Source of the DNA: Myxococcota bacterium
Lineage (GTDB): Bacteria; Myxococcota_A; UBA796; CAJQPC01
Direction of reading: 5' to 3'
NCBI GenBank assembly: GCA_036012755.1
Contig: DASCPX010000180.1
Location: 1-11,422, forward strand
Length of the DNA stretch: 11,422 nt
The notes beneath the pieces are model-generated. The model was not told where the DNA came from and made no database searches. It saw only the letters and a program-made list of their open reading frames with translations. Below, one piece after another: positions 300-10,959 of this stretch (positions are counted from its first letter, which is position 1; each line of letters opens with the position of its first letter). Made by a program: the position numbers and the translations under genes.

Positions 300-953
300 A
301 TGGCAGGTGGAAGGCTCGAGGTCACGTTCAACCCGGAGGATTTCTCCCGGCTCCCCGACTCGGTCACGGAGGGAGCGGTGCAGCTGCTTGACCTCCGGCA
401 GCGCGGGAGGCTCGATGAGCTCGCAGAGCACGTGCGCATCCGGCGCGAGGGCGGCTTCTGCGGACTCGACGTCTGGCTCACGCTGCTGGTGTTCTTTGCG
501 GCCGGCGCCGGCGTCGGGTTCAAGAAGTTCTGGCAAGACGCCGCGGGGCGTCATTCCCGTCAGCTTGGCGCGCTGGTGGGGCGCAAGAAGCTGGTGTCGC
601 CGTCGTCGCTGTCGCGAGCGCTGGACGCTGTGGACCTGGAGCTCGTCCGGCCGGCAGCGAGCTGGCTGCTGGCCGAACTGCCCGGCCTCGACGAGGTCCT
701 GAAGCACCCGGCGGTGCGGACCTACGACACCCTCGGCGAGGGCTGGCACGTCTTCGACGTCGACCCCACGGTCAAGGCCCTGCGCCACCGCGCGCTGCCC
801 GTGGGCGAGGAGCTGCCCGAGCCCTCGCGCCGGTCCGAGGACACCGTCGCGCCCGGCTACAAGGGCCGCAAGCGCGGAGACGTCGTCTTCCGCCAAGCCA
901 CCGTCCAGCACGCCGGCTCGGGCGGGTGCCGGTCTATCCTGCTGGACTTGTAG
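300..953 (+). pseudogene. 3'-truncated DDE-type IS transposase (N-terminal ~208 aa; family uncertain, IS4/IS1380-like superfamily)
   Basis: GGAGG SD at 286-290 before ATG 300; strong GC3 bias. Has an SxSSLSR helix motif, a 'WHVFDVDPT' first catalytic-Asp strand and 'APGYKGRKRG', typical of the GY-x-x-K-R-G segment after the first D of DDE transposases. Composition changes abruptly at ~924 and the frame stops at 951-953, before the second D and the E. Confidence 0.7.
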
Positions 954-1198: not shown

Positions 1199-1870
1199 TC
1201 AGGGCAGCATCGTGCGGTCTCGCTCGCTCGCCCCGTCGGCGTTCTTGTGACCTCTATTGGCGGCGTGCATCCCCAACAGGTCTTTGAGTTTGGCGCGGGC
1301 GCAGTTCTCTGTGAGGCGGTGCCCTCCGCCCTCGATAAGGTCTACCCGGAAGCCAGCGTCCCCCAAGAGTCGAACCTGAGACGCTGGGCATTGTGGGTCG
1401 TCCGCTCCGGAAATGATGTGGAGGCGGGCTCGGAGATGGTCTACTGCTGGTTCGGGGGCGGAATCGTGGCCAAGCATCCACTTGCGGATCTTGGCCGATC
1501 TTGGGGGGCGATAGCCGAGTCGTCCAGTGCCACCTTGAAAGAGAACAGGGCTGATCAGCAACAGTTCCGGCAGGGGGTCACCAGATTCAGCGAGGCCAAC
1601 CGCGTACGCAAGCGCAATCCATGCCGAGAACGAGTGGGCAAGCACCAAGTCGGTTGGCGATACTCGAGCGCTCAGAAACTCGACTTGATCAGCAAACGTC
1701 CTAGCGAGAAAGTCGTCATCGAGCGGTATTCGCAGGAAGGTGGTTGGCCACGAGATTGCCTCGACCACGTCGCCCGGGGGTGGCAACAGTTCTTCCGGTC
1801 CTACGGTGTCACCGCGACCCGGGAGGTACAGCGTTCTTGGAGTCTGGGTGCCGGTCAAAGCTCTTCCCAA
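1199..1870 (-). CDS. Alpha/beta-fold hydrolase (small esterase-like)
   Basis: 'YLPGRG' oxyanion-loop-like strand, nucleophile elbow AHSFS (GxSxG variant), 'LLLISP', acid in 'ISGADDPQCP', His in 'IEGGGH'. GAGGAG SD upstream of TTG 1870; an alternative TTG at 1858 overlaps the upstream gene's TGA. Confidence 0.8.
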   Translation of the reverse strand: MGRALTGTQTPRTLYLPGRGDTVGPEELLPPPGDVVEAISWPTTFLRIPLDDDFLARTFADQVEFLSARVSPTDLVLAHSFSAWIALAYAVGLAESGDPLPELLLISPVLFQGGTGRLGYRPPRSAKIRKWMLGHDSAPEPAVDHLRARLHIISGADDPQCPASQVRLLGDAGFRVDLIEGGGHRLTENCARAKLKDLLGMHAANRGHKNADGASERDRTMLP

Positions 1871-3186
1871 TCACCGATCTCCTCTGAGAACCTGCCCCAA
1901 TTTGGCTCAGCCCAAACTGCCTCAAGCCATTCGCGGAGAACTCGGAAACACCCCAATGAGGGCGGACGGTTGTTCTCGGCACGGAACTCCGCCAATTCAA
2001 TCCCGTGCTGTGGTGCCTCATTCGGTCCGCCGTCCCCTTGTGTCCTTCGAAGAACGATCGCCGCCGGTTCCGGCCACGCCAGACGGTAGGCCAGATAGGC
2101 GCCTTCCTTCAACCGATTGGTCCAAGTGGCACGCCCGATACAGATTCCCAACTCTCGACCCAATTCCCAAGTAGCCTTTGAGTCAGGCAAGAACTCGATC
2201 AACCCGGGCTCCCCGGGCAAAGGCACCGCCGCGAATTCTATCGGTTTTGCTGGCCCTTGCGATTGATACCGACGGAGGGCTTTGCAGACGGATCGATGCA
2301 GCCCCTTGACCGAGACGAGCTCCTGCCGCTCGACGCCGCAGGCCTCCAGGGCCGTGAGTACCTGGTGGAGCTTCCGGGGGCGCCGATCAAAGGTTGTTTG
2401 TCGCGAAATTTCCTCCAAGAAACGCTGACGCAGTTGCAGGCCGAGTTCACGCTGAACCATCAGCGCACCAATGACACCGGAGTTGATCCGCTGGATATTT
2501 CCCAGCGCGGCCAAGGTTCGCTGAGGGTCGCGGGCAAGCAAGGATTTTAGGTCCAGGGCGAACGTGCTCGAGACGGAAACAGCCGGAACGCGCTCGAATG
2601 CTCGAATGACGCCAGGCGAGTGAGGGAATCCCATGTCGTCCAGGACTGCGGCCGGCGTGAACTTGGCCATGAGACGCCGCACCCTGCCAAGATGACGTTT
2701 GCTCGGTCCCCGCGGGCTGACCAGAAAGCCGTTGGCGATGAGCCATGTCAGCATAGGTGCTCGGATTGCGAGTTCTTCAAGTTGAGAGCCGCCGGTCACG
2801 AGCGCGTTGAAAAGGGCGTGGTGGTTCCCCCGAAACCGGCCGAGGAGCGGTGCAAGCCTATCCCAGTCGGCCAGGTCGTCTGAGAACTGGGCCCAGGCTG
2901 CTGGCCCGACTGACCGCCGCATTGGGTCTGAGGCAAACTGGGAGGAAAACCACTCGGGATCAGATCGGCGAGCTCGGGCCAGGCGAACCCAGGGTCGAAA
3001 GAGGTTCACGGTTGTGCGGCTGTAGTGCCAAGATCCGTGTTGCCCGATTTTCCTCGAACAGCTAAGCAGCCGGCCCTTGGCCCGGAGGCAGTGGATTTGG
3101 CTGGGGGCGCCAGTGCGGAAGGCGATGAGGGTACTGGTCGAGCGGCGGTAGTAGTCCCCAGGTCGAATTGGTTGACCACTACTCAT
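1855..3186 (-). CDS. PcfJ-like domain-containing protein
   Basis: 443-aa ORF. C-terminal 'WELGRELGICIGRATWTNRLKEGAYLAYRLAWPEPAAIVL...ELAEFRAENNRPPS' matches the PcfJ-like pattern (EGxxMxHCV..Y....G...Y.L..P.rAT......Q..G..N) in degenerate form, after a helical Arg/Leu-rich region. Stop overlaps the hydrolase start. Confidence 0.6.
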   Translation of the reverse strand: MSSGQPIRPGDYYRRSTSTLIAFRTGAPSQIHCLRAKGRLLSCSRKIGQHGSWHYSRTTVNLFRPWVRLARARRSDPEWFSSQFASDPMRRSVGPAAWAQFSDDLADWDRLAPLLGRFRGNHHALFNALVTGGSQLEELAIRAPMLTWLIANGFLVSPRGPSKRHLGRVRRLMAKFTPAAVLDDMGFPHSPGVIRAFERVPAVSVSSTFALDLKSLLARDPQRTLAALGNIQRINSGVIGALMVQRELGLQLRQRFLEEISRQTTFDRRPRKLHQVLTALEACGVERQELVSVKGLHRSVCKALRRYQSQGPAKPIEFAAVPLPGEPGLIEFLPDSKATWELGRELGICIGRATWTNRLKEGAYLAYRLAWPEPAAIVLRRTQGDGGPNEAPQHGIELAEFRAENNRPPSLGCFRVLREWLEAVWAEPNWGRFSEEIGDWEEL

Positions 3187-3246: not shown

Positions 3247-4014
3247 TCATTTCTCGGCGTCGTAATCGTGGGGGAAAATATTCCGCAAGATCCGGTCCGA
3301 GACAGTTCCATCACGCGCCAGTTCGCGCACTGCTTCAAGAAGGGGCCTTAGGTTTGGGTGGTCGTCGTAGTGCCGAATGAGATCGTCAATGAGAGTAAGC
3401 GCTTGGCGCTCGGTGCACCCTGGTCCGAAGCGAGCCTCCAACTTGTTGAGCCCTCGCCATCGTTGATCTCTGGTCCGGGATTTTTCACGGGAAACCGCGG
3501 CATCGAGCAGGGCGTCAACTTTGGCGATCAATGCGGCTTGGTCGTCAATCTCGTCGCCGCGCTCCTGGAACTTCCTCTTGAGCTCCCACAACTCTAGCGG
3601 GTCTTCATCGTCAAGGTGAATCAGTGTGCGAGGGAATGGTTGCACGTGGACACCACGGTCCTGTTTCACCTCGGGCTCAGGGATCGTGGCGCCCGTGATG
3701 AGACCAAACAAAATCTCCGCGCATAGTCTTGCTTCATACGCCGCCACAGCGCCTTCCCCAAAGTCGCCAGGGGTGAGGCACAGCATGTGGAAGGCCGGGG
3801 AGGACATCCCCAAGGCGCGAGGGGCAGCAAGTTCGATTTTCAGGCCGCCACGCTTCTCGCCGCGCTCGATCATGCCAATGTAGCCGGACTTCACCGCACC
3901 ATTCTCGTCGATTCCGTGTGCTTGCATCACCCGGCCCAGCGCGCTGGCCAACTCGGACTGCGTCATGCCGCGCAGCGCCCGCCCGAGTTTCAGACCCTTC
4001 GCCAAGCTCGGCAC
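3247..4014 (-). CDS. XRE/Cro-C1 family HTH transcriptional regulator with an unknown C-terminal helical domain
   Basis: N-terminal 'LKLGRALRGMTQSELASALG...SGYIGMIERGEK' is the HTH_3 signature, with an insertion in the turn. GAAGGAG SD upstream of GTG 4014. Confidence 0.8.
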   Translation of the reverse strand: MPSLAKGLKLGRALRGMTQSELASALGRVMQAHGIDENGAVKSGYIGMIERGEKRGGLKIELAAPRALGMSSPAFHMLCLTPGDFGEGAVAAYEARLCAEILFGLITGATIPEPEVKQDRGVHVQPFPRTLIHLDDEDPLELWELKRKFQERGDEIDDQAALIAKVDALLDAAVSREKSRTRDQRWRGLNKLEARFGPGCTERQALTLIDDLIRHYDDHPNLRPLLEAVRELARDGTVSDRILRNIFPHDYDAEK

Positions 4015-4885: not shown

Positions 4886-5467
4886 TCAACACAACCGCAG
4901 CACCCGAAATGAAGCGACTCCGCCGAAGCCCAGGGACAGGTCCTGGCCGACCACGACGCGGCCAGTGATGCACTGCAACTCGGCCATGCCTTCGCCCCGC
5001 TGGGCTTGGATGCGGTAGTCGGTGTCGCTGCCGCCGCCGGGGGCGCCGCGGTGCTCGACGGTGAGCACTGGTACCAAGCGCTCCTGCAGGGAGTTGCCGC
5101 CGTGCACGAAGGGCACGTCGCGGTCCCCGCGGTCGAAGAGCTCGATGCCGCGGGGCATGTGCAGCACGCGGTCGGCGCCGGCGCCGGTGTAGGCCAGGTC
5201 GTGGAGCGCGACGCGCTGCAGGGCCCGCTCGCGGAGCAGCTCGTCCCGCAGGATGTAGCGGGAGCGCGGCTGGTTCTGGTGGCCTTGGGGCAGGCGCTTG
5301 GGGTGGGTCAGCAGCAGGAAGCCGTGGTCGGCGGTGAAGACGAAGCGTCGGATGCCGGCGTTGCGCAGCTTGCGCCAGGCGGCGACCAGGTTCTCCAGGG
5401 CCCGGGGGAACTCCGCGGCTCCTCGAGCGCCGTGGCCAGCCTTGTCGATGTCATCGCTCTCGACAGG
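4886..5467 (-). pseudogene. pglZ: Internal fragment of a BREX PglZ alkaline-phosphatase-superfamily protein (resembles BREX type 6 PglZ), truncated at both ends
   Basis: 'SDDIDKAG...AAWRKLRNAGIRRFVFTADHGF' (TADHGF at 5318-5335) and 'FVHGGNSLQERLVPVL' (HGG at 5096-5104) are PglZ core motifs. PglZ-like sequence spans ~4917-5465, and the last ~10 codons to the stop at 4886 are foreign lower-GC sequence. The part of track ORF 4886..6007 above ~5467 is antisense of the esterase. Confidence 0.8.
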
Positions 5468-6016
5468 GAGAGCGTCTCCGCGGAGGTGTCGGTGGACCAA
5501 GACCGCATCCACGTCAATGGCGAGTCCAACGGCGGCCTGATGACCCAGCGCATCGCTCGCGAGGCGACGTCGCTGGCCGCGAGCGTCGGCGTGGTGAACG
5601 CCGCCCAGCCCGCGAACAACGACTGCGGCGACCCGACCGGCCCCATCCCCATCGCCTTCATCGTCGGGACCGCCGACGAGACGATGCCCTGGGACGGAGG
5701 CAACGCCGGCCCCGGCGAGATGCTCTCGGCCGAGGACACCTTGGCGTACTGGCACACACTCGACGGCTGCTCGGGGGACGGAGCGACCGAGGCCCTGGCC
5801 GATCTGGACCAGGACGACGGCTCGACGGTCGAGCTGCAGACCTGGAGCTGCACCGAGGCCGATGTCGTCCGGTACGTCGCCGAGGGCGGGGGCCATGTGC
5901 CGCCGAGCATCGACCAGCAGACCAGCGACACCTGGGACGCGTTCGCCGGCGAACAGAACCACGACCTGGAGACAGCGCACGCGCTGTGGGCCTTCTTCGA
6001 GGCGCACCCGAGATGA
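5468..6016 (+). pseudogene. 5'-truncated LpqC / PHB-depolymerase-family esterase (alpha/beta hydrolase), C-terminal ~182 aa
   Basis: 'VDQDRIHVNGESNGGLM' nucleophile elbow (5519-5536), 'IVGTADETMPWDGG' acid, 'EGGGHVPP' His, 'ALWAFFEAHPR' C-terminus. The N-terminal oxyanion (HG) region and signal peptide are absent, replaced by antisense pglZ sequence. Confidence 0.8.
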
Positions 6017-6043
6017 AAGCTCGCTGCGCCGCGCGGCATGGGA

Positions 6044-6056
6044 TAGGTTGAACCCG
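6044..6056 (+). promoter_or_regulatory. Possible -10 element (TAGGTT) giving a leaderless transcript starting at GTG 6056
   Basis: TAGGTT (TAnnnT) at 6044-6049 ends 6 nt before the start codon; no SD upstream of GTG 6056. Confidence 0.35.
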
Positions 6057-6400
6057 TGAAGCGCGTCCTCCTGCTCCTAGGTGCTGTCGCCTGGCTCGTC
6101 GCCAGCTTCGCCACCACCGTGCACGAGATCGAGACCCAGCACGTCGTCTGCGCCGAACACGGCGAGGTCGTCGAGGTCCACGGCGGCGAAGTCATCCCCG
6201 ACGGTGTCCACGTCAGCGCACCCGACGGCCACGAACACGGCTGCGCGTTCGACCTCGTCGGCGAAGACACCATCGAGCTCGCAACAGCCAGCACCGCGCC
6301 GCTGCTGCTCCCGAGCGCCCGGAGTGTGCTCCTCGACCCGAGCCAGGCCCCCCGCGGCCCGCCGCTCGTCGACGCGCCGAAGACCAGCCCGCCCGCCTGA
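6056..6400 (+). CDS. His/Cys-rich exported leader protein, DUF2946-like, with C-terminal RGPP and PKTSPP motifs
   Basis: N-terminal KR + hydrophobic signal/TM segment, HxxCxxH (HVVCAEH) and HxHxC (HEHGC), 7 His and 2 Cys, Pro-rich tail APRGPPLVDAPKTSPPA. First gene of a metal-uptake operon. Confidence 0.75.
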   Translation: MKRVLLLLGAVAWLVASFATTVHEIETQHVVCAEHGEVVEVHGGEVIPDGVHVSAPDGHEHGCAFDLVGEDTIELATASTAPLLLPSARSVLLDPSQAPRGPPLVDAPKTSPPA

Positions 6401-6413
6401 GGATGACGTTCTC

Positions 6414-6433
6414 GACGGGCTCGATCGCCCGTC
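6414..6433 (+). promoter_or_regulatory. Hairpin between the leader gene and the porin gene (possible attenuator element)
   Basis: GACGGGC-TCGATC-GCCCGTC, a perfect 7-bp stem followed by pyrimidine-rich CTTGTCTCCTCC rather than a U-tract. Confidence 0.45.
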
Positions 6434-6460
6434 CTTGTCTCCTCCAGCAATGGCACGGGT

Positions 6461-7513
6461 GTGTTTCATCTGTTGTTTGCGAGTGCGTTCGCCCAGGGCA
6501 ACGCGCTCAACCCCGACATCGCGTTCATCGCGGACATCGCAGCGGCCGGCTTCTCAGGGGATCCCCTGCAGACCGGCGCGCACGATCCCCAGCAGAACGG
6601 CTTCAACCTCCAACAGCTCGAGCTGTCGGTGGGCCAGGCCGTCGACCCCTACTTCCGCTTCGACGGGAACATCGTCTTCGCCCAGTTCGGCGTGGAGATC
6701 GAAGAGGTCTACGCGACCACCCTCGGCCTGCCTGGCGGCACCCAGATCCGCGCCGGGCAGTTCCTGACGCGCTTCGGTCGCCACAACCCCACCCACCCCC
6801 ACACGTGGGACTTCGCCGACCAGCCCTGGGTGACCGGTCGCGTGATGGGCGCCGAGGGCAACCGGGGACTGGGCGTCGAAGGCAGCTGGCTTGCGCCGAC
6901 GCCGTTCTACCTGGAGCTCGTCGTCAGCGAGACGATGCTCGGCGGCGCCGCGACGAACCGGTCGTGGTCGGACTTCTCGGGGGTCGAAGGGCCCTTCGAC
7001 CTGCAGACCACCGCATCGGCGAAGACGTTCCTGGCGCCGCACGACGACCTGTCGGTGCTGGCCGGTGTCTCCTGGGCTGTCGGCCCCAACGGCACGGGAC
7101 GCGACAACCGCTCCGAGCTGTTCGGCGGCGACGTGACGCTGAAGTACCGACCCATCACCCGCGCGTCGGGACACCAGATCGCGCTGACCAGCGAGTGGAT
7201 CCAGCGGCGCCGCCAGCTGCCGGGCGAACTGGTCACGGACTGGACCGGCCTGACCGCCCTGACCTGGCGCAACCAGCGCGTCGGGCTGGGCGCTCGCCAC
7301 GAGCTGGGGACGCCGTCGACCGGCAGCGACCCGCTCGACCCGGCCTGGGTCGCCAACCGCCACCGCTGGTCCGGTGCGGCCACGTACTGGCCCACCGAGT
7401 TCTCCCGTCTCCGCCTCCAGGGCGCCCGCGACACCGGCATCGACGCGCCGCTCTACAGCGTGTTCCTGGCCTTCGAGTTCGCGGTCGGAGCCCACGGCAG
7501 CCACGCCTTCTAG
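6461..7513 (+). CDS. Outer-membrane beta-barrel (porin-like, His-motif-containing) linked to the metal ABC transporter
   Basis: Signal peptide ending AFA-Q; alternating amphipathic strands; 'NPDI', 'EIEEVY', 'RAGQFLTRFGRHNPTHPHTWDF', 'PTEFSRLRLQ'; C-terminal GAHGSHAF ending in Phe. At 350 aa it is too short for a plugged TonB-dependent receptor. Confidence 0.8.
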   Translation: MFHLLFASAFAQGNALNPDIAFIADIAAAGFSGDPLQTGAHDPQQNGFNLQQLELSVGQAVDPYFRFDGNIVFAQFGVEIEEVYATTLGLPGGTQIRAGQFLTRFGRHNPTHPHTWDFADQPWVTGRVMGAEGNRGLGVEGSWLAPTPFYLELVVSETMLGGAATNRSWSDFSGVEGPFDLQTTASAKTFLAPHDDLSVLAGVSWAVGPNGTGRDNRSELFGGDVTLKYRPITRASGHQIALTSEWIQRRRQLPGELVTDWTGLTALTWRNQRVGLGARHELGTPSTGSDPLDPAWVANRHRWSGAATYWPTEFSRLRLQGARDTGIDAPLYSVFLAFEFAVGAHGSHAF

Positions 7514-7525
7514 CCAGGAAACATC

Positions 7526-8392
7526 ATGCTCCTCGCCCTCTTGAACCTCGCCCACGCCGACCTCAACGTGGTGGCCACACTGCCCGACCTGGCGGCCGTC
7601 TCCCAGGCGGTCGGCGGTGACCACGTGAAGGTCACGTCGATGGCGCTCCCCACCCAGGACCCGCACTTCGTCGACGCGAAGCCGAACCTGGCCGTCAAGC
7701 TGTCCAAGGCCGACGCGCTGGTCCACGTCGGCCTGGAGATGGAGATCGGGTGGCTCCCGACCCTGGTGACCGGCTCGCGCAACAAGGACGTCCAGTCCGG
7801 TGCGACGGGGAACATCGACTGCAGCCAGTACGTCACGGTGCTGGACAAGCCGGCGGGCGCCGTCGACCGGGCGATGGGCGACGTGCACGGCCAGGGCAAC
7901 CCCCACTACTTCTACGACCCGCGTCGCATGAAGGACGTCGCGCTCGGCCTCGCGGACCGATTCGGCCAGCTGGACCCCGAGTTCGCCGAGGTCTACACCG
8001 CGAACGCCCAGGCCTTCGCCGCGGACATCGACGCGCACCTGCCCGAGTGGGAGCGGCGTCTGGCCGGCTACCAGGGCGCCCCGGTCATCGGGTACCACCG
8101 CTCGTGGAGCTACCTGGCGGACTGGATCGGCTTCTCGGTGGTCGGCGCAGTCGAGCCCAAGCCCGGCATCCCGCCCACGCCCGGCCACATCGCCAAGACC
8201 GTCAACGGAGCCAAGGAGACCGGGGTCCAGCTCGTCCTGATCGAGTCGTTCTACCCGGCCACCAGCGCCTCTCTGGTCGCGGACAAGGCCGAGGCCACGC
8301 TGCTGACCCTCACGGCCGGCACGGACTTCCCGCGGCAGACGTACGTCGCCCACATCGACGCCTGGGTCGACAGCATGGAGGGGGCGCTGTGA
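7526..8392 (+). CDS. znuA: Metal ABC transporter substrate-binding protein (ZnuA/TroA cluster A-I)
   Basis: 'VVAT...VGGDHVKV', 'QDPHF', 'HGQGNPHYFYDP', 'YHRSWSY', 'EPKPGIPPT', 'IESFY': three His ligands plus a probable acidic ligand. AGGA SD upstream. Confidence 0.92.
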   Translation: MLLALLNLAHADLNVVATLPDLAAVSQAVGGDHVKVTSMALPTQDPHFVDAKPNLAVKLSKADALVHVGLEMEIGWLPTLVTGSRNKDVQSGATGNIDCSQYVTVLDKPAGAVDRAMGDVHGQGNPHYFYDPRRMKDVALGLADRFGQLDPEFAEVYTANAQAFAADIDAHLPEWERRLAGYQGAPVIGYHRSWSYLADWIGFSVVGAVEPKPGIPPTPGHIAKTVNGAKETGVQLVLIESFYPATSASLVADKAEATLLTLTAGTDFPRQTYVAHIDAWVDSMEGAL

Positions 8393-9057
8393 TCCTCCTC
8401 CTGACCGCCTGCACGATGCAGCCCGGCACCGGGTACGCGTCGCTCGACGAGGTCCTGCTCGACGTGGCCTTCGACCCGACCGAGGCCCGCGATCTGGGCG
8501 ACGGCCTGGTCCTGACCGATACGGGCGCCCGGGTCCAGTTCCAGGTGCTCGAGCTGGACGTGGCCGAGCTGCGCGTCGAAGAGCTGATCGGCGGCGTGAC
8601 CTTCTCCGAGCAGGACCCGCCCGATGGCTACAGCCTGTGCCACAACGGCCACTGTCATGCCGACGACGGCGAGCTGGTCGACTACGCGACCATCGAGGCC
8701 GAGATCGGCGGGGGGTCGTTCGAGACCGCTCTCTCCTGGCCGATCGACGGGACGATCGACGCGCTCGCCGGCGAGACGCTGACGCTCTCGTCGTGCCCTC
8801 AGGACCTGCCCGAGCTGAGCCTCCGCCGCCTCTCGATCGACGTGACCGAGCTGCGCTTCGAGGGCACGGTCGACGGCCAGGAGCTGTGGGCCAGCATGTC
8901 GGGCGACGCGCTCGGCCCCTTCACCCTGGACGTCGATCGGAGCGCCCCCGAGGCGTTCTCGCTCGACGCCGCCTTGATCTTCGACGGGACCGGCTTCGAC
9001 GGCCAGGACCCACCGATCACCCTCCCCCTTCCCATTCCAACGATGGAGCTACGATGA
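8389..9057 (+). CDS. Uncharacterised acidic lipoprotein with a CHNGHCH motif (222 aa)
   Basis: GTG 8389 overlaps the znuA TGA (GTGA), with GGAGG SD. Lipobox LTAC; 'DPPDGYSLCHNGHCHADDG' (CHNGHCH at 8638-8658). This is the real 3' part of track ORF 7750..9057. Confidence 0.8.
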   Translation: MILLLTACTMQPGTGYASLDEVLLDVAFDPTEARDLGDGLVLTDTGARVQFQVLELDVAELRVEELIGGVTFSEQDPPDGYSLCHNGHCHADDGELVDYATIEAEIGGGSFETALSWPIDGTIDALAGETLTLSSCPQDLPELSLRRLSIDVTELRFEGTVDGQELWASMSGDALGPFTLDVDRSAPEAFSLDAALIFDGTGFDGQDPPITLPLPIPTMELR

Positions 9058-9452
9058 TTTTCCTGACCACCCTGTTCGCTTGCACCGGCGCCGAAGAAGA
9101 AGAGCACGACGTCTTCCACGAGGCCTGCGAGGTCGCCGGCGAAGTACACCACTCGCTGGTCGAAGGCGACGAGATCGAGCTCGGCCATCCCAGCGAGATC
9201 ACGCTCACCGACCTGGGCGATGGTACGTACTCGGCGACGTTCGACCTCGATCACGCCGGCGCCGTCCTGTTCGTCGGCACCGAGGGCCTGACCGACCTGG
9301 GTGACAGCACCCCGAACCCCGACTGCCCCGACGAGATGCCCGAGCACTACGACATCGACGAGGCGACCACCGTGACGTTCGGACCCGCCGCCGTCGAGAC
9401 CGTGTGGGTCCTGTACACCGAGGCCGAAGGCCACGACCACGCCAACCATTGA
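9054..9452 (+). CDS. Uncharacterised His-rich acidic lipoprotein (132 aa)
   Basis: ATG 9054 overlaps the previous TGA (ATGA), with GGAG SD. Lipobox LFAC; 'EHDVFHEACE', 'EVHH', 'DCPDEMPEHY', C-terminal 'GHDHANH'. This is the real 3' part of track ORF 8637..9452. Confidence 0.8.
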   Translation: MIFLTTLFACTGAEEEEHDVFHEACEVAGEVHHSLVEGDEIELGHPSEITLTDLGDGTYSATFDLDHAGAVLFVGTEGLTDLGDSTPNPDCPDEMPEHYDIDEATTVTFGPAAVETVWVLYTEAEGHDHANH

Positions 9453-10132
9453 GCCTGCTGTCCTGCCAGTCCCTGCGCGTCGGGTACGCCCGTAAGGCGC
9501 TGCTGCCCGCGGTGGACATCACCGTCGAGCCCGGCCAGTTCTGGGCGGTGCTCGGGCGCAACGGGGCTGGCAAGACAACCCTCTTCCGCACGCTGCTGGG
9601 CCTGCAGAAGCCGGTCTCGGGCAGCGTCACGCTGTCCACCCAGCCGGCGTACCTGGCCCAACGTCTGGCCTTCGATCCGCTGTACCCGGTGCGTGTTCGC
9701 GAGCTGGTCGAGAGCGGGACCATCCACGGCTGGAGCTTCCTGCGCCCCCTGGCCAACCCCGTGGACGAGGCGCTCGAAGCCACGGGCATCGCGGACCTTG
9801 CCGACCGGACCTTCCGCAGCTTGTCCGGAGGCCAGAAGCAGCGCGCCTTGTTCGCTCGAATGCTGGCGACCGGCAGCAAGCTCGTCTTCCTGGACGAGCC
9901 GACGGTCGGCATGGACGCGGTCGCCGAGCGTGAAGTCATGGAGCTCCTGGCCCGACTGCGGGTCGAGTACGAGCTGACCGTCGTCGTTGTCACGCACTTC
10001 CTGGACGTGGCCCGAGCCCACGCCGACAACGTCCTGTTCCTGGACAAGGACGACCAGAACATCGTCAGCGGGCCGCTGGACGAGGTGTTCGCGCACCCCG
10101 CGTTCCAGGCACGCTACGGGCAGGTCCTGTGA
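9449..10132 (+). CDS. znuC: Metal ABC transporter ATP-binding protein
   Basis: Walker A GRNGAGKT, signature LSGGQ, Walker B VFLDEP, H-loop VTH. Start placed at TTG 9449, overlapping the upstream TGA (the track start at 9404 adds a non-ABC-like tail). Confidence 0.92.
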   Translation: MSLLSCQSLRVGYARKALLPAVDITVEPGQFWAVLGRNGAGKTTLFRTLLGLQKPVSGSVTLSTQPAYLAQRLAFDPLYPVRVRELVESGTIHGWSFLRPLANPVDEALEATGIADLADRTFRSLSGGQKQRALFARMLATGSKLVFLDEPTVGMDAVAEREVMELLARLRVEYELTVVVVTHFLDVARAHADNVLFLDKDDQNIVSGPLDEVFAHPAFQARYGQVL

Positions 10133-10959
10133 CCGTCACCGACTTCTTCGAGGCCTGGGACCTGTTCCGCGACGCGGTGCTGACCGGCGTCATCGCGGGC
10201 TCGGCGCTCGGCCTGCTGGGCGTCTTCATCGTCCTGCGCCGCATGGTCTTCGTGACGGCCGCCATCACCCAGTCCGCCGGGTTCGGCGTGGTGTTGGGCT
10301 TCTGGATCGGCATGATGACCGGGACCGAGGTGGACCCCGTCTTCTGGGCCGTCGGAGTGAGCCAGCTCGCCGCCGCAGTGTTCGCCATCAATCCGGCGCG
10401 CGTCCACCTGTCGCGCGAGTCCATCCTGGCGCTGGTCTGGCTGGTCGGCAGCGGCGGAGCCATCCTGCTCGGAGACCGCATCGCGGCCGAGGCCCACGAC
10501 GTGAAGGCCATCCTGTTCGGGACCGCCGTGCTCGTCCGACCCGAGGACCTGGTCGCGGTCGGCGCTGTCGGTACGCTCGCCATCGTCGGCGTGCTGCTGG
10601 CGCGACGTGGACTGGTCTTCGTCGGGGTCGACCCGGATGGCGCTCGAGTCCAGAAGGTCCCCGTCCGCCTGCTCGAGCTGGGCTTCCTGGCCCTGGTCAC
10701 GCTGGTCGCCAGCGTCGCCACCCGAGCGCTCGGAGCCTTGCCGGTGTTCGCGTTCTCGGTGCTGCCCGCAATGGCCGCCCTGCTCGCGACGCGACGGCTG
10801 AACGTGGCGCTCATCCTGGCGCTCGTCGGCGGCGGACTGGCGGCGTTCCTCGGCTACCTCGGGGCGTTCCTCTGGGACTTCCCGGTCGGGGCCGCGCAGG
10901 CCGCCACGGCCCTGGTGTTCGTGCTCCTGGCGCTGCCGTTCCGGCTGCTCCGGGGCTAG
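10129..10959 (+). CDS. znuB: Metal ABC transporter permease (ABC-3 family)
   Basis: Multiple TM helices, 'LGVFIVLRRMVF', 'ILFG', 'DPDGARV', 'LPAMAA', 'WDFPVGA'. GTGA overlap with znuC. Confidence 0.92.
   Translation: MTVTDFFEAWDLFRDAVLTGVIAGSALGLLGVFIVLRRMVFVTAAITQSAGFGVVLGFWIGMMTGTEVDPVFWAVGVSQLAAAVFAINPARVHLSRESILALVWLVGSGGAILLGDRIAAEAHDVKAILFGTAVLVRPEDLVAVGAVGTLAIVGVLLARRGLVFVGVDPDGARVQKVPVRLLELGFLALVTLVASVATRALGALPVFAFSVLPAMAALLATRRLNVALILALVGGGLAAFLGYLGAFLWDFPVGAAQAATALVFVLLALPFRLLRG

What the first reader, a model, noticed from the sequence alone, without database searches (positions are those of the whole stretch)
6017..6463. Candidate metal-sensing ribosome-arrest leader peptide controlling a Zn-type uptake operon
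Seen: the first gene encodes a signal/TM segment, HxxCxxH and HxHxC clusters, then RGPP (6353-6364) and a second Pro-Pro motif PKTSPP (6377-6394) just before the stop. A 7-bp hairpin and a C/T-rich tract follow, and the porin GTG has no clear SD. The 39-bp upstream gap is GC-rich with no AT-rich Fur/Zur-type box. Established: RAPP/RGPP-type motifs stall ribosomes in secretion-monitoring peptides (ApdA, ApdP), and DUF2946-type leaders CruR (Bordetella) and CutF (Rhodobacter) control downstream copper genes post-transcriptionally via Cys motifs and Pro-rich C-termini. Inference: a His-dominated, double-arrest-motif variant that senses periplasmic Zn (or Ni/Co) co-translationally and gates a porin + ABC importer in place of Zur. 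I know of no described example for a Znu-type operon.
Basis: partly seen in the sequence, partly recalled or inferred. Interest (0 to 1): 0.78.

Follow-up and report, generated by a model that had tools for sequence, protein, structure and literature searches.

The report
Arginine-free stalling leader before zinc importer
A small exported peptide gene in front of a zinc-type uptake operon belongs to a large family of myxobacterial leader peptides that probably stall their own ribosome to switch the uptake genes on when metal is scarce, using a stalling sequence that lacks the arginine required in the known copper-sensing versions.

Summary
The 114-aa ORF (6056-6400), its His/Cys clusters, RGPP, PKTSPP and hairpin are real. 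It belongs to a large unnamed, DUF2946-like family (2,373 clusters at E<=1e-10; 104 of 301 phylum genomes) heading porin-ZnuABC or TonB-receptor operons. The family motif is not RGPP (20 of 233 leaders, a subclade add-on) but Arg-less APKxSPP, placed 52-53 residues after the HxC cysteine, as RAPP is in CruR (52). The same porin has HGPP, RGPP or RAPP leaders in other lineages. The Ser-Pro-Pro codons pair with their own downstream start region: a modelled ribosome there eases opening by 2.7 kcal/mol, against 0.2 upstream, 0.6 for swapped partners and 0.2 for ordinary gene pairs; 28 further loci agree. Best reading: stall = operon on, periplasmic metal (probably Zn) releases it. Stalling and metal are untested. 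'In place of Zur' holds here (one Fur-like gene, no box) but 8 of 133 homologous promoters carry a Zur-like palindrome. This scan noted RGPP/RAPP/HGPP analogues on other DNA, and RAPP leaders before this porin are rows in a published data table; I found no mention of the KxSPP form. New variant of a known kind.

The parts
6044..6049 (+). -10-like hexamer 6 nt before the leader GTG; probable leaderless promoter
   Evidence: Sequence; same geometry in 17 of 89 dereplicated homologues against 0-6 at shifted positions, and TTGAC-type hexamers are the most enriched upstream words. Fails the strict promoter scan. Inference.
6056..6400 (+). Leader ORF, 114 aa, DUF2946-like APKxSPP family
6059..6133 (+). 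Signal peptide or membrane helix, residues 2-26
   Evidence: AlphaFold2 helix, pLDDT about 95; hydrophobic stretch in all 31 aligned homologues
6122..6160 (+). First metal-ligand cluster H23, H29, C32, H35
   Evidence: H23 and H29 invariant, C32 and H35 at least 90% in 31 sequences
6230..6244 (+). Second cluster H59-x-H61-x-C63; C63 lies 50 residues before the last Pro
   Evidence: C63 invariant, H61 at least 90%; spacing 49-54 in most leaders
6353..6364 (+). RGPP, subclade-specific second stalling-type motif
   Evidence: 20 of 233 leaders, fixed position; kept in the window's porin clade
6374..6394 (+). APKTSPP, family-defining candidate arrest motif; its codons also form the anti-start strand
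   Evidence: A 96%, P 100%, K 97%, S 95%, PP 100% in 233 leaders (selection pattern forced the Pro residues); codon bias; folding
6399..6444 (+). Inner stem: 7-bp hairpin (6414-6433) closed by 6399-6408 pairing with the C/T tract 6436-6444
   Evidence: Predicted structure; z -1.8, 10 of 200 shuffles as stable
6445..6470 (+). Porin start region, predicted to pair with the K109-P113 codons
   Evidence: Opening cost 16.8 kcal/mol free, 12.1 with ribosome at SPP, 13.5 with ribosome at RGPP
6461..7513 (+). [quoted passage not shown]
   Evidence: No Pfam/NCBIfam/PDB hit; Atlas model TM 0.95 to that cluster, porin clusters by features; invariant His motifs
7526..8392 (+). ZnuA/AztC-type binding protein
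   Evidence: PF01297 E 3.7e-48; best PDB hit a zinc-uptake binding protein; three His ligand positions kept
8389..9452 (+). Two exported or lipoprotein-like proteins with His clusters
   Evidence: No family; the first recurs in 57 of 68 porin loci
9404..10959 (+). ZnuC/AztA ATPase and ZnuB/AztB permease

Best explanation
A cis-acting, metal-sensing leader peptide. The operon is transcribed from an ordinary promoter. The leader's N-terminal helix takes the nascent chain into the Sec translocon; the ribosome pauses with the first Pro of SPP in the P site, which puts the His/Cys clusters (50 and 78-90 residues back) at the periplasmic side. While paused it covers the Ser-Pro-Pro codons, which otherwise pair with the porin start region, so porin and ZnuABC are translated. 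When periplasmic metal, most likely Zn, binds the His/Cys site, folding releases the pause, the ribosome leaves, the long stem re-forms and uptake is shut off. Shown: ORF, family, motif conservation, spacing, operon position, codon bias, predicted locus-specific pairing. Inferred by analogy with CruR and CutF: stalling, metal binding, direction of the switch, identity of the metal. In this subclade RGPP is probably an auxiliary pause.
For: (1) Motif: APKxSPP near-invariant 1-5 residues before the stop; 59 of 80 porin-selected loci have it. (2) Register: HxC Cys to last Pro 52-53 in 145 of 213 non-RGPP leaders, 49-51 in the 20 RGPP leaders; CruR C90 to P142 is 52 and the spacing matters there (PMC9426467). 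(3) Interchange: the same porin is headed by HGPP leaders in 11 and RGPP in 1 of 12 Verrucomicrobia loci, and by a CxxC+RAPP leader in L058. (4) Codons: first Pro of PP is CCT in 25 of 66 against 98 of 854 in neighbouring genes; Ser is TCN in 54 of 57 against 462 of 631. (5) RNA: footprint at SPP lowers the cost of opening the next start region by 2.7 kcal/mol (47 of 66 over 1), footprint 10 codons upstream by 0.2; synonymous recoding weakens occlusion in 49 of 66; 70 ordinary gene pairs 0.2; swapped partners 0.6, own above swap in 48 of 66; second set of 28 loci 4.1 against 1.1 swapped. (6) Targets: porin or ZnuA in 70 of 110 leader-selected loci, TonB receptor first in 20. (7) DUF2946 link: two members pass the Pfam cut-off, top Atlas cluster is named DUF2946. 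(8) One Fur-family gene in G000, Fur-like not Zur-like.
Against: No experiment. Arg is essential in ApcA, ApdA and ApdP (PMC12992588; PMC10951233) and is absent from xSPP, so stalling would need other contacts. Most RAPP-like sequences tested did not stall (PMC10987492). In the window the SPP footprint opens the start only partly (12.1 kcal/mol left) and an RGPP footprint gives 13.5. Absolute occlusion is not higher than in ordinary gene pairs (12.3 against 11.8, p 0.35). Start codons were picked by my heuristic, which rewards an SD; relatives are not independent. Three leaders head TolC-MFP-CzcA efflux operons and one lies before a CDF gene, which needs the opposite logic. No proteome avoidance of KxSPP could be shown. 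The predicted structure beyond residue 42 is unreliable, so no metal site geometry.
Confidence: 0.62

Rival explanations
1. Same stalling leader, but the output is transcriptional: release of the stall exposes a C-rich stretch and Rho terminates before the porin, as for CruR. Not exclusive of the main reading.
For: C exceeds G across about 6180-6440 (31-38 C against 22-25 G per 78 nt); CruR works this way; pyrimidine-rich codon choice at SPP also suits a rut site.
Against: A similar C excess is seen inside the porin gene; the pairing effect is partner-specific, which a rut site would not need; gaps are mostly 55-140 nt.
Confidence: 0.14
2. Two functional arrest sites in this subclade: RGPP is a first, secretion-released pause and APKxSPP the metal-released one, or RGPP is the real stall here.
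For: R[AG]PP kept in 5 of 5 leaders of the window's porin clade at about 40% identity and only at one position; RGPP is the most stall-prone, most avoided tetrapeptide; the DUF2946 model end aligns to RGPP in L002.
Against: Decayed in many leaders of the same order and class; Cys-to-RGPP spacing is 40, short of 52; in 7 of 7 RGPP/RAPP leaders modelled the SPP footprint opens the start more than the upstream footprint.
Confidence: 0.12
3. The sensed metal is not zinc (Ni, Co, Cu or Mn), or differs between branches of the family.
For: His-only CutF-like proteins lie before Ni/Co genes (10.1101/2022.11.11.516240); some members keep a CxxC (16 or more of 233); TonB receptors and CzcA-type pumps among targets have no assigned metal.
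Against: Binding protein closest to ZnuA/AztC with three His; 8 of 133 promoters carry a Desulfovibrio-type Zur-box-like palindrome (3 or fewer mismatches) against 5 of 3,616 background windows.
Confidence: 0.2
4. A small periplasmic metal-binding protein or chaperone of the uptake system with no cis role; the Pro-rich tail is structural.
For: Export signal and His/Cys ligands; always in metal operons.
Against: Always first in the operon; poorly ordered; invariant tail 50 residues after the last ligand; synonymous codon bias and partner-specific RNA pairing are not explained by a protein role.
Confidence: 0.08

Closest known systems
CruR (Bp2923) of Bordetella pertussis, DUF2946/PF11162 (PMC9426467: abstract, passages, section 9 read; arrest shown in PMC12992588, passages read)
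   Same: Short exported uORF first in a metal-uptake operon; Cys about 52 residues before a terminal Pro-Pro; stall predicted to keep uptake on
   Different: No CxxC and no terminal RAPP here; His-rich H-x5-HxxCxxH plus HxC; targets are a porin and ZnuABC, not copper genes; output predicted to be start-site occlusion rather than Rho termination
CutF of Rhodobacter capsulatus (10.1101/2022.11.11.516240 passages; 10.1101/2025.02.05.636593 abstract and Discussion read)
   Same: Arg-less Pro-rich tail, Sec export, stalled ribosome melts a stem over the next ribosome-binding site
   Different: Copper induces the stall and turns on detoxification; CxxxC ligand; PPP tail that depends on EF-P; here the motif has invariant Ala-Pro-Lys upstream and heads uptake genes
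RAPP/RQH arrest peptides ApdA, ApdP, uA_RQH_Myxococcales (QAPP), uA_LPPP (PMC10987492, PMC10951233, PMC12992588; passages read)
   Same: Small exported peptide with x-small-Pro-Pro near the C-terminus; Ser is partly tolerated at the second position
   Different: Arg/Gln/His at the first position is needed there; here that position is free (T, A, S, N, Q, G) and Lys one residue earlier is invariant; these monitor secretion
[quoted passage not shown]
   Same: Same kind of downstream porin and same leader layout
   Different: Canonical RAPP ends; listed only, not discussed or tested; no PKTSPP string in the held part of that file

Membership tests
DUF2946 / CruR | Matches PF11162 above its cut-off | tested here: not met
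   No hit for the window protein at E<=1; 7 of 31 homologues hit weakly, best E 0.007; two family members pass the cut-off, 28.5 and 27.8 bits against 23.7
DUF2946 / CruR | CxxC copper motif | tested here: not met
   C32 and C63 are single; CxxC in 17 of 150 top hits
DUF2946 / CruR | RAPP as terminal conserved motif | tested here: not met
   Terminal motif is PKxSPP; R[AG]PP in 20 of 233, 10-11 residues upstream
DUF2946 / CruR | Fixed ligand-to-ProPro spacing (first Cys to last Pro 52 in CruR) | tested here: met
   50 in the window; 49-54 in 214 of 233 leaders (CruR positions)
DUF2946 / CruR | N-terminal export signal, first gene of a metal-homeostasis operon | tested here: met
DUF2946 / CruR | Metal-dependent relief of arrest controls downstream genes in cis | not testable with these tools
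   Only indirect RNA and codon evidence
CutF-like proteins (rule-based set of Ozturk et al.) | Under 150 aa, signal peptide, PP within 15 C-terminal residues, same-strand neighbour within 1,000 nt | tested here: met
   114 aa, PP 1 residue from the end, 60-nt gap; criteria. SPI cleavage itself was not predicted. Whether this family is in their list is unknown: that file was not among the supplements held
CutF-like proteins | Stem over the downstream ribosome-binding site within reach of the stalled ribosome | tested here: inconclusive
   Supported across the family by folding with controls; only partly opened in the window itself; computed, not probed
RAPP/RGPP arrest peptides | Arg at -3 from the last Pro of the conserved motif | tested here: not met
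   T 40%, A 15%, N 12%, S 12%, Q 9% at that position; the subclade RGPP does meet it
RAPP/RGPP arrest peptides | Ribosome stalls with Pro3 in P site and Pro4 in A site | not testable with these tools
   Needs toeprinting or ribosome profiling
Zur regulon | Zur gene and Zur box at the promoter | tested here: not met
   One Fur-family gene in G000 (96% complete), scoring 98 bits as Fur and 40 as Zur; no box in the gap; one 2-mismatch Desulfovibrio-type site elsewhere in the genome

The most novel reading that the evidence does not exclude
APKxSPP is a new, arginine-independent ribosome arrest motif, used by thousands of myxobacterial leaders to sense periplasmic zinc through the translocon and to gate zinc import without a repressor; its Ser-Pro-Pro codons double as the anti-start strand, and the window's subclade has added a second, RGPP stall ten codons earlier, giving a two-step switch.
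Probability: 0.35. Interest if true: 0.8.

Novelty: new variant of a known kind. Interest (0 to 1): 0.62.

Why it matters
Metal-sensing arrest leaders are proven only for copper (CruR, CutF), and structures make Arg the key contact of RAPP-type stalling. A family of over two thousand clusters with an invariant Arg-less APKxSPP in the same register would extend the arrest code, would be missed by the RAPP/RGPP screens, and would give a route to zinc control in bacteria where no Zur is found (PMC545781 already noted delta-proteobacteria with znuABC and no Zur). A Myxococcus xanthus homologue exists (L029), so the test can be done in a laboratory organism.

Tried and rejected
Single-sequence homologue search found only 3 near copies; the family was reached through the porin. 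Pfam and NCBIfam gave nothing for leader or porin. Profile comparison of the Myxococcota and Verrucomicrobia leaders gave probability 1.3%: they share layout, not detectable sequence. Proteome avoidance test in G000 was uninformative: even RGPP was 41 observed against 40.5 expected on rough gene calls. Single-sequence fold of the porin failed (pLDDT 28), so no fold search was run; the leader model was too weak past residue 42. Fur-family count against leader presence: 53 of 104 leader-positive and 79 of 197 leader-negative genomes have at most one match (hand tally; p 0.09), not phylogenetically controlled, no conclusion. Porin tree: quick tree only, careful search unfinished, and my automatic RGPP labels were wrong, so I read labels. 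Metagenome locus search by alignment was not possible, so range outside the phylum sample is not mapped. No RNA holder listed. Intrinsic terminator reading of the hairpin rejected. The ATG at 6403 and other overlapping frames have no family support and were set aside.

Full report
Observation. The window holds, on the + strand, a 114-aa ORF at 6056-6400 followed by a 350-aa porin-like gene, a ZnuA-type binding protein, two His-bearing exported proteins, and ZnuC- and ZnuB-type genes. There is no intrinsic terminator, strict promoter match or Rfam hit. A -10-like hexamer ends 6 nt before the leader GTG; 17 of 89 dereplicated homologues show this geometry against 0-6 at shifted positions, and -35-type words are the most enriched upstream. 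Named relatives and Atlas taxa place the family in Myxococcota.

The family. The leader has no Pfam or NCBIfam match and only three close homologues. Searching by the porin gave 80 loci. A small ORF ending in PK..PP lies before the porin in 59 of them; 6 of the 59 also have RGPP. Of the other 21, the 12 Verrucomicrobia loci have His-rich leaders ending HGPP (11) or RGPP (1), L058 has a CxxC+RAPP leader, and 8 showed none by my patterns, one of them cut short. ZnuA follows in 66 of the 68 loci with enough DNA. An alignment of 31 leaders has H23, H29, C63, P108, K109, P112 and P113 invariant. Its profile finds 4,243 clusters at E<=0.001 and 2,373 at E<=1e-10, and matches in 104 of 301 genomes of the phylum. 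I fetched 110 of the 120 genome matches, leaving out nine of the weakest and the paralogue on G000:C18. Downstream, the porin is found in 65 and porin or ZnuA in 70 (the first 30 loci had only 1.5 kb of flank). Of the 45 without a porin hit, 20 begin with a TonB receptor, 2 more have a probable or second-place receptor, 5 have ZnuA next or second, 3 head TolC-MFP-CzcA-type pumps, 1 lies 592 nt before a CDF gene, 2 have an unnamed exported protein and 12 are unresolved.

Which motif matters. In 233 leaders dereplicated at 60% (from 294), the last seven positions are A 96%, P, K 97%, variable, S 95%, P, P, with L/Y/F ten residues from the end (the Pro residues were forced by the selecting pattern). 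R[AG]PP occurs in 20 of 233, only 10-11 residues before the last Pro. It is kept in all five leaders of the window's own porin clade (97% SH-aLRT in a quick tree) and in two of a second clade, where neighbours show decayed forms. The distance from the HxC cysteine to the last Pro is 49-54 in 214 of 233, mode 52-53, and 50 in the window; to RGPP it is 40. In CruR C90 to P142 is 52, and adding five residues breaks control (PMC9426467, section 9). So APKxSPP stands where RAPP stands. Seven of 31 homologues touch DUF2946 weakly, the two best DUF2946 hits in the phylum sample are members of this family and pass the cut-off, and the top Atlas cluster is named DUF2946. The window protein itself fails the model and lacks CxxC and terminal RAPP, so I call it DUF2946-like, not a member.

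RNA evidence. In the window the hairpin and C/T tract are inner arms of one long predicted stem whose outer arm pairs the K109-P113 codons with 6452-6470, around the porin GTG. I assigned downstream starts in 123 porin loci by a heuristic, dropped 11 doubtful or duplicate ones and those over 160 nt away, and dereplicated 102 to 66. The first Pro of PP is CCT in 25 of 66 against 98 of 854 Pro-Pro pairs in neighbouring genes; Ser is TCN in 54 of 57 against 462 of 631; the Pro before Lys shows no such bias. Blocking a ribosome footprint at SPP lowers the cost of opening the start region by 2.7 kcal/mol on average (47 of 66 over 1); a footprint ten codons upstream gives 0.2; synonymous recoding weakens occlusion in 49 of 66. 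Seventy of 91 ordinary gene pairs from G000 give 0.2 (14 of 70 over 1), but their absolute occlusion is the same as the leaders'. Leader ends joined to another locus's start region give 0.6, to unrelated genes 0.2. A second set of 28 of 30 loci without a porin hit, not dereplicated, gives 4.1 against 1.1 swapped. In all 7 RGPP/RAPP leaders of the first set the SPP footprint opens more than the upstream one. In the window the values are 16.8 free, 12.1 at SPP and 13.5 at RGPP, so opening is partial and the two sites are not sharply separated. These are energy models on related genomes; the p-values overstate independence.

Metal and Zur. [quoted passage not shown] G000 has one Fur-family gene, Fur-like rather than Zur-like, and no box in the gap (two of the four patterns were recalled). 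However 8 of 133 homologous upstream regions carry the Desulfovibrio-type Zur palindrome of PMC545781 with at most 3 mismatches, against 5 of 3,616 background windows. That supports zinc, and shows that leader and repressor can coexist. Leader presence does not clearly track Fur-family number.

Mechanism. Most likely the ribosome pauses at SPP during export, with the His/Cys clusters at the periplasmic side, and by covering those codons frees the porin start; metal binding releases the pause and the stem shuts uptake off. That is CruR logic with CutF-type RNA output. Stalling, metal binding and direction are inferred. The main doubt is chemical: all 19 substitutions of Arg abolish arrest in ApcA and ApdA (PMC12992588, first part of text) and Arg makes nearly all rRNA contacts (PMC10951233, passages). 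Arg-less motifs do exist (QAPP, HAPP, LPPP, NSP-stop; PMC10987492, passages; PPP in CutF), so a Lys-based variant is plausible. The efflux-heading members need the opposite polarity, as CutF shows is possible; two of them end in PKIGPP and show little RNA effect.

What is known. CruR and CutF are copper systems. Ozturk et al. list His-only CutF-like clusters before Ni/Co genes; their protein list was not among the supplements held and may include this family. PMC12992588 reports RAPP/RGPP uORFs before metal genes without naming zinc, yet its source file has 9 RAPP uORFs before the zinc-regulated receptor family; the held part, which is cut, has no PKTSPP. A full-text search for six spellings of the motif gave 9 papers, none on bacterial leaders by title; three further searches on zinc and arrest leaders listed nothing else relevant. 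Subscription papers are not covered. This scan's notes hold several RGPP, RAPP and HGPP leaders before zinc-type importers in other phyla, read after my RNA tests; none holds the words APKTSPP or PKxSPP or a look-alike sequence.

Verdict. Observation confirmed, interpretation partly supported and redirected: the new element is a phylum-wide, Arg-less APKxSPP leader family with comparative evidence for a stall-coupled RNA switch, of which the window is a two-motif member. New variant of a known kind; interest 0.62.

Noticed in passing
G000:C18 about 25970-27170, minus strand (L081 9968-11195): Second family member ending APKTSPP whose 5' end is replaced by an unrelated gene fragment, followed by a truncated porin paralogue; decayed copy or misassembly.
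   Followed up: partly
L068-L079 (Verrucomicrobia): His-rich leaders ending HGPP (11) or RGPP (1), Cys to last Pro exactly 55 in all 12, before the same porin-ZnuA-ZnuB; no profile similarity to the Myxococcota family.
   Followed up: partly
L147, L165, L181; L191: APK-type leaders before TolC-MFP-CzcA efflux operons (two end PKIGPP) and a CDF-band 7 fusion; opposite polarity would be needed.
   Followed up: partly
L115, L117, L119, L126, L133, L137, L143, L145, L155, L156: TonB_C-fused TonB receptors (MxcH-like layout) headed by the leader, with strong predicted pairing to the start region in several.
   Followed up: partly
L187, L127, L141, L120, L114, L132, L092, L094: Desulfovibrio-type Zur-box-like palindrome upstream of the leader; possible two-layer control.
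   Followed up: partly
L148, L161, L172, L176, L183, L135, L190: A sub-branch has lost the Lys (SPGHSPP, SPINSPP, SPGLSPP, APSHSPP): natural variants for testing the motif.
   Followed up: no
window 4886-5500 (-) and 5006-6016 (+): A BREX-6 PglZ fragment on the minus strand abuts or overlaps a PHB-depolymerase-like esterase frame on the plus strand; looks like a junction or broken island.
   Followed up: no
window 6461-6495, 7526-7560, 8389-8420, 9054-9085: Very short signal or lipoprotein leaders on the operon's exported proteins.
   Followed up: no
window 300-953 (+), 1855-3186 (-), 3247-4014 (-): Lower-GC region (about 60%) with a transposase-like fragment by eye and unassigned ORFs, one with a weak HTH hit.
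   Followed up: no
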